In this document: one piece after another, positions 28,334-28,467 of the stretch
Layout of the letters: the number at the start of each line of letters is the position of its first letter
Position numbering within the stretch: position 1 is the first letter of the stretch
IMG/VR virus record: IMGVR_UViG_2895374923_000002
Coordinates: 15,523 to 79,522 of that record
Reading direction: 5' to 3' (one strand)
Source: a virus
DNA length: 64,000 bases
Position numbers and translations under genes: made by a program
Notes under the pieces: model-generated
Told to the model about the DNA's origin: nothing
What the model saw: only the letters and a program-made list of their open reading frames with translations
Databases searched by the model: none

Positions 28334-28467
28334 CGTGCCCGGTGCGCAGGCAACGGTTCCTTCCGACTCCTAATCGGCTGGTTGCGGGTTCGAGTCCCGC
28401 CGGTCTCCGGACCGTAGCTCAAGCGGTAGAGCAGCTGGCACCGTCGCCGACTTCGATCTCGGGCGCG
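28334..28467 (+). ncRNA. YrlA-like Y RNA 3: circularly permuted tRNA-like module with CCU anticodon loop
   Basis: Ends pair (CGTGCCC/GGGCGCG); anticodon arm CCGA-CTCCTAA-TCGG, T arm GCGGG-TTCGAGT-CCCGC, acceptor CGGTC-TCCG-GACCG, D arm TA-GCTC-AAGCGGTA-GAGC-A. Confidence 0.85.

What the first reader, a model, noticed from the sequence alone, without database searches (positions are those of the whole stretch)
28334..28467. Y RNA 3: permuted tRNA with a Lys-like body but a CCU (Arg) anticodon
Seen: CCGA-CTCCTAA-TCGG anticodon arm, canonical T and D arms, and acceptor CGGTC/GACCG closed by TCCG. The context (GACTCCTAATC, and GAGCAGCTG after the D arm) resembles actinobacterial tRNA-Lys(CUU) GAGCAGCTGACTCTTAATC with one anticodon change. 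Established: tRNA-Lys is the target of PrrC-type anticodon nucleases. Inference: the head was captured from tRNA-Lys and the anticodon either drifted or was tuned, for example into a cleavage-resistant binder.
Basis: partly seen in the sequence, partly recalled or inferred. Interest (0 to 1): 0.72.

Follow-up and report, generated by a model that had tools for sequence, protein, structure and literature searches.

The report
Prophage YrlA-type Y RNA, tRNA-like head
This is an ordinary member of a known class of small RNAs (YrlA-type Y RNAs) that sit in front of the Ro60 gene and imitate a tRNA; its "Arg anticodon" is a freely drifting triplet in a conserved loop, not a retuned lysine tRNA.

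Summary
The sequence features are real. Window 28338-28463 (+) folds as a Ro60-type lower stem carrying a rearranged tRNA: a 7-nt-loop hairpin, a 5-nt variable loop, a T arm, an acceptor stem closed by UCCG, and a D arm. It lies 58 nt upstream of a TROVE/VWA Ro60 gene inside a prophage, probably in a Nonomuraea-like host.

It belongs to the YrlA class of Chen et al. 2014. That paper already describes a fourth stem-loop ("V") upstream of the T arm.

I collected about 140 related elements from relatives and actinophages. Their covariation supports the hairpin, a 2-bp helix (27-28:42-43) and the tRNA Levitt pair.

The hairpin therefore sits exactly where an anticodon arm would. The Ro stem leaves through a nick in the 5' strand of the anticodon stem.

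U33 and A38 are nearly fixed. The middle triplet changes as fast as unconstrained loop positions: 23 different triplets, differing within single genera.

The body matches host tRNA-Lys(CUU) no better than tRNA-Met (both 46/58). Five other host tRNAs lie within 1-2 positions.

ARAGORN's tRNA-Arg(cct) call is an artefact.

An earlier report of this scan treated the sister RNA (28181-28317) on this same window.

The parts
28338..28342 (+). 5' strand of the terminal stem (CCCGG), paired with 28459-28463 (UCGGG)
   Evidence: Pairs 1:153 to 5:149 of alignment A1 are 100% paired in 46 homologs. The R1 hit spans 28338-28463.
28343..28348 (+). Conserved 5' internal-loop letters UGCGCA within GGUGCGCAGG. 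This is the likely Ro60-contact motif, a CGCA version of the CGAA motif.
   Evidence: Columns 6-9 are invariant and 10-11 nearly invariant in A1. Chen et al. 2014 place the Rsr-binding motif GNCGAAN0-1G near the 5' end. Binding was not tested here.
28349..28357 (+). 5' strand of the upper Ro stem: GGC pairs with 28446-28448, and ACGGU pairs with 28440-28444
   Evidence: Pairs 12-19 with 129-136 of A1 are 99.1% paired, and 4 pairs show changes on both sides. Base identities were checked.
28358..28363 (+). Linker UCCUUC. In homologs this is the conserved YUACUUC stretch, equivalent to the 'YUAY that begins the V loop' of Chen et al.
   Evidence: Alignment A1 columns 20-26; paper text.
28364..28376 (+). 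Anticodon-like hairpin: stem CGA/UCG (tRNA positions 29-31 and 39-41) and 7-nt loop CUCCUAA (28367-28373; C32 U33 CCU A37 A38). C28363 can add a fourth pair with G28377.
   Evidence: Covariation CGA/UCG, CCA/UGG, CGC/GCG, CCG/CGG. For this particular element an alternative pairing is possible.
28377..28378 (+). Positions 42-43 (GC), paired with G27 C28 at 28434-28435. This is a short helix that completes a composite 5-bp anticodon stem.
   Evidence: A1 pairs 40:115 (AU 24, GC 21, GU 1) and 41:114 (GC 36, CG 6, UA 3, AU 1), both 100% paired.
28379..28383 (+). Variable loop UGGUU (44-48). U48 pairs with A15, the Levitt pair.
   Evidence: 15:48 is G:C in 23, A:U in 20 and other in 3 of 46 homologs.
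28384..28400 (+). T arm GCGGG-UUCGAGU-CCCGC
   Evidence: Rfam YrlA alignment. A1 pairs 47-51 with 59-63 are 100% paired, with 3 covarying pairs.
28401..28414 (+). Closed acceptor-like stem: 5 bp CGGUC/GACCG capped by the UCCG tetraloop. There is no free 5' or 3' end and no CCA.
   Evidence: Sequence. The acceptor pairs covary in A1. The stem is shorter than the 7 bp that Chen et al. link to RNase P cleavage.
28415..28433 (+). U8 A9, D arm GCUC-AAGCGGUA-GAGC, and A26
   Evidence: Rfam YrlA alignment. The D stem is invariant in A1.
28434..28444 (+). G27 C28 (short helix), linker UGGC, then ACCGU, the 3' strand of the upper Ro stem. U28436-G28438 could alternatively pair with 28374-28376.
28445..28463 (+). 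3' strand of the Ro module: C, GCC, then GACUUCGAUC as the internal loop, then UCGGG
   Evidence: Conserved CCGYCGCCG(N4-6)GAUCUCGGG in A1.
28521..30104 (+). Ro60/Rsr ortholog (527 aa, TROVE + VWA), the presumed protein partner
   Evidence: Pfam TROVE E 1.2e-14. PHROG 850 'RNA-binding protein' E 9.5e-54. 46 of 49 homolog loci have Ro60 directly downstream of the element.
28184..28314 (+). Sister Y RNA of the same array. It has the same Ro module but a different tRNA-like head (a GUCGUCUAGCGGCC..GGAC D arm) and loop CUCUCAA.
   Evidence: R1 hit of 96.2 bits; parse.

Best explanation
The element is a YrlA-class Y RNA carried by a prophage. It is probably transcribed with two sister RNAs and the downstream Ro60 gene.

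Its conserved lower stem and internal loop (5' CCCGGUGCGCAGGC..., 3' ...GCCGACUUCGAUCUCGGG) is the Ro60-binding module. Its upper part is a tRNA-shaped module with T arm, closed acceptor stem, D arm and variable loop.

In most family members the module is completed by an anticodon-arm look-alike. Its 5-bp stem is composite. Positions 27-28 come from the strand after the D arm, and positions 29-31 come from the strand arriving from the Ro stem. The Ro stem therefore branches off at a nick in the anticodon stem.

By analogy with studied Y RNAs, the tRNA-like head would act as the handle for a second protein or for tRNA-recognising enzymes, while Ro60 holds the stem.

Selection keeps the shape of the loop: 7 nt, a pyrimidine at 32, U33, a purine at 37 and A38. 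It does not keep the triplet. CCU in this copy is one outcome of drift and carries no Arg or Lys identity.

Shown: sequence anatomy, family membership, covariation and loop statistics. Inferred: Ro60 binding, coaxial stacking into a full L-shape, the tether function, and co-transcription.
For: Family and context:
- The Rfam YrlA local hit covers the core from the short helix before the variable loop through the D arm, at E 6.6e-9.
- The element lies 58 nt upstream of a TROVE/VWA ORF.
- 46 of 49 homolog loci have the same synteny.
- The region is a prophage, with terminase and portal genes.

Structure:
- 98.2% of cells pair over 29 pairs, 14 pairs show compensatory changes, and 0 of 500 shuffles reach any of the five observed measures.
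- Hairpin pair 27:38 is GC in 20 and CG in 15 homologs.
- The short-helix pairs are 100% paired, with four pair types at 41:114 and three at 40:115.
- The Levitt pair covaries in 43 of 46.

Loop:
- U33 is present in 60/65 and A38 in 63/65.
- Triplet entropy is 1.8-1.9 bits, with 23 different triplets.
- These include AGG, AUG and AUU, which to my knowledge bacterial tRNAs do not use.
- Fitch changes are 1 for U33, 3 for A38 and 14-16 for the triplet columns.

Literature:
[quoted passage not shown] - Chen et al. aligned RNAs from Streptosporangium, Gordonia, Mycobacterium and a mycobacteriophage (PMC4201824).
Against: - The Rfam score is below the family's gathering score (45.5 against 69), because the Rfam consensus has a continuous anticodon stem without the hairpin.
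- For this particular copy, nearest-neighbour energies slightly favour the classical continuous stem (-40.0 kcal/mol) over hairpin plus short helix (-37.4). A third arrangement scores -46.4.
- Unconstrained folding does not return a tRNA shape, with z only -2.0.
- The 5' motif is CGCA rather than the published CGAA.
- No sigma-70-type promoter or intrinsic terminator was found.
Confidence: 0.85

Rival explanations
1. One reading: the head was captured from host tRNA-Lys, and the anticodon was changed to CCU to make a cleavage-resistant binder or decoy for a Lys-specific (PrrC-type) anticodon nuclease.
For: The host tRNA-Lys(CUU) shares GAGCAGCUG and GACUCnUAAUC with the element and is co-best among host tRNAs at 46/58. 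The element is in a prophage. Phage counter-measures against anticodon nucleases are established biology (own knowledge).
Against: - tRNA-Met scores the same, and five other host tRNAs lie within 1-2 positions.
- The shared letters are the family-wide D arm plus a covarying 27-28 pair.
- Stems stay the same (CGA/UCG, CCA/UGG) while the triplets differ, so the triplets changed in place rather than by capture.
- CUU or UUU occur in only 6 of 65 elements.
- The triplet evolves at the rate of unconstrained positions.
Confidence: 0.03
2. It is a genuine tRNA-Arg(CCU) gene at 28335-28408, as ARAGORN calls it.
For: ARAGORN call. There is a perfect T arm and a canonical 7-nt loop.
Against: - The Rfam tRNA score is 20.5 bits, below the gathering score of 29.
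- In that register the acceptor stem has only 5 of 7 pairs and there is no D arm.
- The real D arm lies downstream of a closed acceptor hairpin.
- The whole 126 nt fits the Y RNA model at 122.7 bits.
- The host already has an ordinary tRNA-Arg(CCU) elsewhere.
- The same artefact appears in phage records: the annotated VanLee tRNA-Arg(tct) overlaps a 107-bit Y RNA hit.
Confidence: 0.01
3. In this particular copy the hairpin does not form. UCGGC (28374-28378) pairs entirely with GCUGG (28434-28438), giving the classical YrlA anticodon stem that runs into the Ro stem. CUCCUAA is then just part of a 17-nt internal loop.
For: This arrangement scores -40.0 kcal/mol against -37.4 for the hairpin model. 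About one third of T-arm-bearing family members (31 of 96) lack the hairpin, and several of them pair all of 39-43 with the post-D strand. The S. Typhimurium YrlA crystal structure has no anticodon loop (bioRxiv 10.1101/312249).
Against: - Two of the three extra pairs are G-U.
- In the family as a whole the lower three pairs are formed in only 33/45, 17/44 and 20/37 sequences. The corresponding hairpin pairs are formed in 39/46, 38/44 and 33/37.
- A Nocardia element with the same CGA-CUCCUAA-UCGGC hairpin cannot form the alternative beyond 3 pairs.
Confidence: 0.3
4. The anticodon-like loop is functional as such. It would serve as a substrate or decoy for enzymes that read anticodon loops (TrmD or t6A enzymes, anticodon nucleases, repair ligases), and the variable triplet would reflect diversifying selection rather than drift.
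For: - The loop frame is conserved (Y32, U33, R37, A38).
- G36 is followed by G37 in 12 of 13 distinct contexts, against 5 of 33 otherwise. U36 is followed by A37 in 14 of 16.
- These mirror the known determinants for m1G37 and t6A37 (own knowledge).
- Ro60 genes sit among tRNA genes or next to an RNA ligase gene in actinophages.
- YrlA is known to be modified by tRNA enzymes.
Against: - The triplet's rate equals that of neutral-looking positions, which drift alone explains.
- The 36-37 association is not corrected for shared ancestry.
- About one third of the family lacks the hairpin altogether.
- There is no biochemical evidence.
Confidence: 0.15

Closest known systems
YrlA (Y RNA-like A), Rfam RF02553; Chen et al. 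2014 RNA 20:1715 (PMC4201824)
   Same: - Encoded directly upstream of Ro60/Rsr.
- Has a lower stem with a conserved 5' motif.
- Has T arm, closed acceptor-like stem and D arm in the order T-AS-D, with tRNA tertiary pairs (15:48).
- Has a fourth stem-loop upstream of T (the authors' 'V').
- Occurs in actinobacteria (Streptosporangium, Gordonia, Mycobacterium) and their phages.
- Occurs together with further Y RNAs in one array.
   Different: - Scores below Rfam's gathering threshold, because the Rfam consensus lacks the hairpin and has a different lower stem.
- The motif is CGCA rather than CGAA.
[quoted passage not shown]
- Here the fourth stem-loop is read as an anticodon-arm mimic with a composite stem, not as a variable arm. 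That is a re-reading, not a new part.
S. Typhimurium YrlA tRNA-like domain, crystal structure PDB 6CU1 (Wang et al. 2018, bioRxiv 10.1101/312249)
   Same: L-shaped tRNA mimic with the same T, D and acceptor elements and a closed acceptor stem.
   Different: The Salmonella RNA 'lacks the anticodon loop', and its anticodon stem continues into the Ro stem. Most members of the actinobacterial family described here carry a 7-nt-loop hairpin at that place.
Genuine bacterial tRNA-Arg(CCU) and tRNA-Lys(CUU)
   Same: Same D and T arm consensus, same loop frame C32 U33 NNN A37 A38, and a 5-nt variable loop. Identity over positions 8-65 is 43/58 to Arg(CCU) and 46/58 to Lys(CUU).
   Different: - Circularly rearranged, with a closed 5-bp acceptor stem, no CCA and no discriminator base.
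- The Ro stem is inserted in the anticodon stem.
- The Rfam tRNA score is below threshold.
- The triplet is not conserved among orthologs.
D. radiodurans Yrn1
   Same: Ro60-bound Y RNA with a T-arm-like element. Chen et al. model a possible 'anticodon arm' in it.
   Different: In Yrn1 that arm lies between the T and D arms and has a 6-nt loop, and the orientation differs. The authors consider Yrn1 and YrlA to have evolved independently.

Membership tests
YrlA-class Y RNA (Chen et al. 2014; Rfam RF02553) | Encoded next to a Ro60/Rsr (TROVE) gene | tested here: met
   The element ends at 28463 and the TROVE/VWA ORF starts at 28521. 46 of 49 homolog loci show the same arrangement.
YrlA-class Y RNA (Chen et al. 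2014; Rfam RF02553) | Conserved T-like and D-like stem-loops with a closed stem-loop (AS) between them, in the order T-AS-D | tested here: met
   Rfam YrlA model positions 24-84 aligned at 45.5 bits, E 6.6e-9. The pairs are confirmed in 46 homologs.
YrlA-class Y RNA (Chen et al. 2014; Rfam RF02553) | tRNA tertiary pairs possible, with compensatory G15:C48 / A15:U48 | tested here: met
   G:C in 23, A:U in 20 and other in 3 of 46. This element has A15:U48.
YrlA-class Y RNA (Chen et al. 2014; Rfam RF02553) | Full-length score at or above Rfam's gathering score (69 bits) | tested here: not met
   Only a local match of 45.5 bits. The Rfam consensus has a continuous anticodon stem and a different lower stem. 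This is a curated score threshold, not a structural feature. The RNAs of Streptosporangium and Gordonia that Chen et al. aligned by hand are of this type.
YrlA-class Y RNA (Chen et al. 2014; Rfam RF02553) | 5' motif GNCGAAN0-1G (Ro60 contact) | tested here: inconclusive
   This element has GGUGCGCAGG, with CGCA instead of CGAA. Other members of the same arrays have GGUGCGAAGG. The motif position is conserved.
YrlA-class Y RNA (Chen et al. 2014; Rfam RF02553) | Bound by Rsr/Ro60; modified or processed by tRNA enzymes | not testable with these tools
   Needs immunoprecipitation and modification mapping.
Genuine tRNA (Rfam RF00005) | 7-bp acceptor stem formed by the free 5' and 3' ends, D arm after position 9, and a score at or above 29 bits | tested here: not met
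   20.5 bits. In ARAGORN's register the acceptor has 5 of 7 pairs and there is no D arm.
   Lys(CUU) 46/58 equals Met(CAU) 46/58. Arg(UCU), Lys(UUU) and Asn score 45.
   23 triplets in 65 elements, with CUU or UUU in 6. The triplet varies within genera.
   I made no search for such a nuclease. Binding needs an experiment.

The most novel reading that the evidence does not exclude
The 'V' stem-loop of actinobacterial and actinophage YrlA RNAs is a true anticodon-stem-loop mimic. It has a composite 5-bp stem and U33, R37 and A38 are kept, with G36 followed by G37 and U36 followed by A37. The Ro60-bound RNA would then present a whole tRNA to enzymes that read anticodon loops, such as m1G37 and t6A37 enzymes, anticodon nucleases and repair ligases. 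The freely changing triplet would be a diversifying bait or decoy rather than neutral drift.
Probability: 0.15. Interest if true: 0.6.

Novelty: new member of a known kind. Interest (0 to 1): 0.3.

Why it matters
As an individual locus it is ordinary. It is one more YrlA-type Y RNA next to a Ro60 gene, here in a prophage of a Streptosporangiaceae-like host.

Three practical points follow:
- tRNA finders call the 5' two-thirds of such RNAs as tRNAs. Examples are tRNA-Arg(cct) here, and apparently tRNA-Arg(tct) in Gordonia phage VanLee and tRNA-Ser(gct) in Streptomyces phage LuckySocke. Phage and genome tRNA counts near Ro genes should therefore be read with care.
- The Rfam YrlA model misses this large actinobacterial branch because it lacks the hairpin.
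- The comparative data place the known fourth stem-loop exactly where an anticodon arm belongs. The loop frame is conserved and the triplet unconstrained. This limits which partners could recognise the head: shape readers are possible, anticodon-sequence readers are not.

Tried and rejected
- Whole-window Rfam scan at gathering thresholds: nothing.
- Unconstrained folding of 28325-28475: no tRNA shape, z = -2.0. Single-sequence folding cannot settle the structure.
- Energy comparison of three arrangements for this copy: within about 9 kcal/mol and not decisive.
- Promoter and terminator consensus scans of 27800-28700: none found.
- blastn of the array against the phage collection: only short T-arm and D-arm matches. 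The covariance model was needed to find the phage relatives.
- Two reviews on bacterial Y RNAs (PMC10870794, PMC6047535) are not held in the library.
- I considered whether the loop triplet pairs with the post-D linker. By-eye inspection of three elements (this one, L033 and L038) found no complementarity, so I dropped the idea.
- I considered whether CUCCU acts as an anti-Shine-Dalgarno element for the Ro60 mRNA. I rejected this because the triplet is not conserved.

Full report
**What is in the sequence**

The region 28040-28520 lies between small phage-type genes and a 527-aa ORF (28521-30104) with TROVE and VWA domains, that is, a Ro60/Rsr ortholog. A large terminase (37833-39494) and an SPP1-type portal (39501-41021) follow, so the locus is in a prophage. 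The window is part of an 11.4-Mb, 55-contig actinobacterial genome. The nearest Ro60 relatives are in Nonomuraea, Streptosporangium, Planotetraspora, Planobispora and Acrocarpospora, then Lentzea and Nocardia.

- hairpin CCGA/CUCCUAA/UCGG
- variable loop UGGUU
- T arm GCGGG-UUCGAGU-CCCGC
- acceptor-like stem CGGUC/GACCG closed by UCCG
- U8 A9 and D arm GCUC-AAGCGGUA-GAGC
- A26, then GCUGG.

**Is it more than chance, and what family is it?**

ARAGORN calls 28335-28408 a tRNA-Arg(cct). The Rfam tRNA model gives only 20.5 bits against a threshold of 29, with a 5-of-7 acceptor stem and no D arm in that register. The best Rfam match is YrlA (RF02553). It is a local alignment of model positions 24-84 to 28377-28435 at 45.5 bits, E 6.6e-9. 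That is below the family's gathering score of 69.

The Rfam consensus has a continuous anticodon stem and no hairpin before the T arm. This explains the truncated match.

A DNA search of 300 genomes of the same family found matches at E <= 0.001 in 152 of them, spread over 66 of 90 genera, including dozens of full-length homologs at 70-84% identity. I collected 46 distinct elements with the same D arm type (alignment A1) and built a covariance model (R1). R1 scores 28338-28463 at 122.7 bits and the sister RNA at 28184-28314 at 96.2 bits. It also finds related RNAs next to the Ro genes of Gordonia, Streptomyces and Arthrobacter phages. In 46 of 49 homolog loci a Ro60 gene starts within the fetched flank, usually about 50 nt downstream.

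**Structure from comparison**

All elements share a Ro module: 5' CCCGGUGCGCAGGCNRCGGNUACUUC and 3' CCGYCGCCG(N4-6)GAUCUCGGG.

The loop end and the T stem are separated by 10 nt. These are five letters that behave as tRNA positions 39-43 and a five-letter variable loop. The register is confirmed by the Levitt pair 15:48, which is G:C in 23, A:U in 20 and other in 3 of 46.

Positions 39-41 covary with the three letters just before the loop: CGA/UCG, CCA/UGG, CGC/GCG, CCG/CGG. Pair 27:38 of A1 is GC in 20 and CG in 15.

Positions 42-43 covary with the two letters after A26, behind the D arm. These pairs are AU 24 / GC 21 / GU 1 and GC 36 / CG 6 / UA 3 / AU 1, with every cell paired.

Over the whole structure 98.2% of cells pair, against 86.5% in shuffles and 37-50% when partners are slid.

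The result is a composite 5-bp anticodon stem with a 7-nt loop. Positions 27-28 come from the strand leaving the D arm, and 29-31 come from the strand arriving from the Ro stem. The Ro stem therefore branches off at a nick between 28 and 29. That the two short helices stack into a normal anticodon arm is my inference.

The alternative is the classical YrlA arrangement, in which the post-D strand pairs with all of 39-43. In the family its lower three pairs are formed in only 33/45, 17/44 and 20/37 sequences. It is the arrangement in a minority that lack the hairpin; 31 of 96 T-arm-bearing elements lack it.

This particular copy can do both. GCUGG can pair with UCGGC using two G-U pairs. Nearest-neighbour energies are -40.0 kcal/mol for the continuous stem, -37.4 for hairpin plus short helix, and -46.4 for a third arrangement. 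I therefore give the hairpin about 0.6-0.7 for this copy. A Nocardia element with the same CGA-CUCCUAA-UCGGC hairpin cannot form the alternative.

**The loop and the 'anticodon'**

Among 65 elements with a hairpin at the tRNA distance:
- position 32 is a pyrimidine in 60
- position 33 is U in 60
- position 37 is a purine in 59
- position 38 is A in 63.

The middle triplet has 1.8-1.9 bits of entropy per position and 23 different values. GUU is the commonest. CUU and UUU together occur six times, and CCU occurs once in that set. CCU occurs three more times among the named relatives: two Lentzea species and one Nocardia.

Some triplets (AGG, AUG, AUU) are, to my knowledge, not used as bacterial anticodons.

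The triplet differs within genera while the stem stays the same:
- one genus has CGG, UUU and GGG on the same UCGA stem
- another genus has GCU and UCU
- Lentzea has GUU, GUA and CCU.

On a 46-tip tree built without the loop columns, U33 changes once and A38 three times. The triplet columns change 16, 14 and 16 times. This is the same range as the acceptor-loop and linker columns, at 17-19.

The triplet therefore behaves as unconstrained, while the loop frame is kept.

**The Lys claim**

Over positions 8-65, however, the element is equally close to tRNA-Met(CAU) and tRNA-Lys(CUU) at 46/58. Arg(UCU), Lys(UUU) and Asn score 45, Trp scores 44, and the genuine Arg(CCU) scores 43.

The shared letters are the family-wide D arm (also in the Rfam consensus derived from other phyla) plus the covarying 27-28 pair. 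Nothing indicates capture from tRNA-Lys.

**What is known**

Chen et al. 2014 (PMC4201824) found YrlA RNAs next to Ro60 in more than 250 bacteria and phages. They aligned Streptosporangium roseum, Gordonia, M. smegmatis and a mycobacteriophage. [quoted passage not shown] They noted a conserved YUAY that begins the V loop; here this is the UUAC of the conserved YUACUUC, and UUCC in this copy.

They showed Rsr binding in M. smegmatis, modification by DusA and TruB in Salmonella, and RNase P cleavage with CCA addition in M. smegmatis. They attribute the cleavage to that RNA's 7-bp acceptor stem. The present element has 5 bp, so such cleavage is unlikely.

The crystal structure of the Salmonella domain 'lacks the anticodon loop' (bioRxiv 10.1101/312249). 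In the papers I could read, the hairpin is treated as V and I found no description of it as an anticodon-arm mimic. Two reviews were not available.

An earlier follow-up of this scan on the sister RNA at 28181-28317 reports that 'the complete form proves common in this RNA family'. My analysis was done before I read that note, and it agrees.

**How it most likely works**

Ro60 binds the conserved lower stem and internal loop. This is an inference from the family; the motif is CGCA here rather than CGAA. The tRNA-shaped head is exposed as a handle for a second factor. In D. radiodurans and Salmonella, Y RNAs tether Ro60 to PNPase, and YrlA heads are recognised by tRNA enzymes.

The head is recognised by shape, not by the triplet.

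The three RNAs and Ro60 are probably one transcript that is processed, as reported for M. smegmatis. I found no promoter or terminator consensus inside the array and could not test expression.

**Verdict**

- The element is a new member of a known kind.
- The residual point of interest is the conserved anticodon-loop frame, with an association between positions 36 and 37. G36 is followed by G37 in 12 of 13 distinct contexts against 5 of 33 otherwise (Fisher p 1.8e-6, not corrected for ancestry). This could mean that the loops are read by tRNA anticodon-loop enzymes.

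Noticed in passing
L085:1204-1337 (Gordonia phage VanLee, MZ028627.1) and L081:1272-1411 (Streptomyces phage LuckySocke, OR725497.1): tRNAs annotated just upstream of the phage Ro genes coincide with the 5' part of full-length Y RNA hits of model R1. These are tRNA-Arg(tct) at L085:1204-1275 (107.3 bits) and tRNA-Ser(gct) at L081:1274-1347 (43.1 bits). They look like the same artefact as ARAGORN's tRNA-Arg(cct) here. A 74-nt tRNA-Ser would also lack the long variable arm.
   Followed up: partly
65 hairpin-bearing elements in alignment A2 (loci L032-L087 and window): Loop positions 36 and 37 are associated. 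G36 is followed by G37 in 12 of 13 distinct stem-loop contexts, against 5 of 33 for other letters. U36 is followed by A37 in 14 of 16. This mirrors the determinants of m1G37 and t6A37 in real tRNAs. It is not corrected for shared ancestry and remains unexplained.
   Followed up: partly
loci L032-L080, e.g. L033:1506-1991, L048:1062-1631, L072:672-1244: Arrays of two to four Y RNAs share one Ro module but carry different heads:
- a GUAGCUCA..AGAGC D arm type, always nearest to Ro60
- a GUCGUCUAGCGGCC..GGAC type, as at window 28184-28314
- a GUGGUGUAA..GCAGCA type
- forms of about 105 nt for which my parser found a T arm but no D arm matching these three types
- forms of about 67 nt without a head.
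The heads look modular on a constant Ro-binding scaffold.
   Followed up: partly
window 28480-28511: An 8-bp hairpin (AGGCCCCU ... AGGGGCCU, 16-nt loop) lies between the Y RNA and the Ro60 start codon. Its 3' strand contains the purine-rich stretch GAGAGGGG, about 10-17 nt before the ATG. It is not followed by a U tract, so it may be a processing or translation-control element rather than a terminator.
   Followed up: no
L087:729-1481 (Streptomyces phage Kela); L081, L082 and L084 (LuckySocke, BRock, Atuin): In actinophages the Ro gene sits inside tRNA gene clusters, or directly after an annotated RNA ligase gene in Kela. This fits a link between Ro60/Y RNA and tRNA metabolism or repair.
   Followed up: no
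window 30158-30901: The ORF after Ro60 (247 aa) has no Pfam hit at E <= 0.001. It matches only PHROGs of unknown function (phrog_8604, E 3.9e-24, over its C-terminal part).
   Followed up: partly
L088:621-744, L089:610-743 and L090:609-744 (Nonomuraea spp., Ro60 79-85% identical): The closest Ro60 relatives carry different Ro-proximal Y RNAs. One has another D arm type with a perfect 5-bp hairpin and loop CUGCUAA. Two have only a 2-bp CC/GG closure around UUUGGGA. The array content therefore turns over faster than the Ro60 protein.
   Followed up: no
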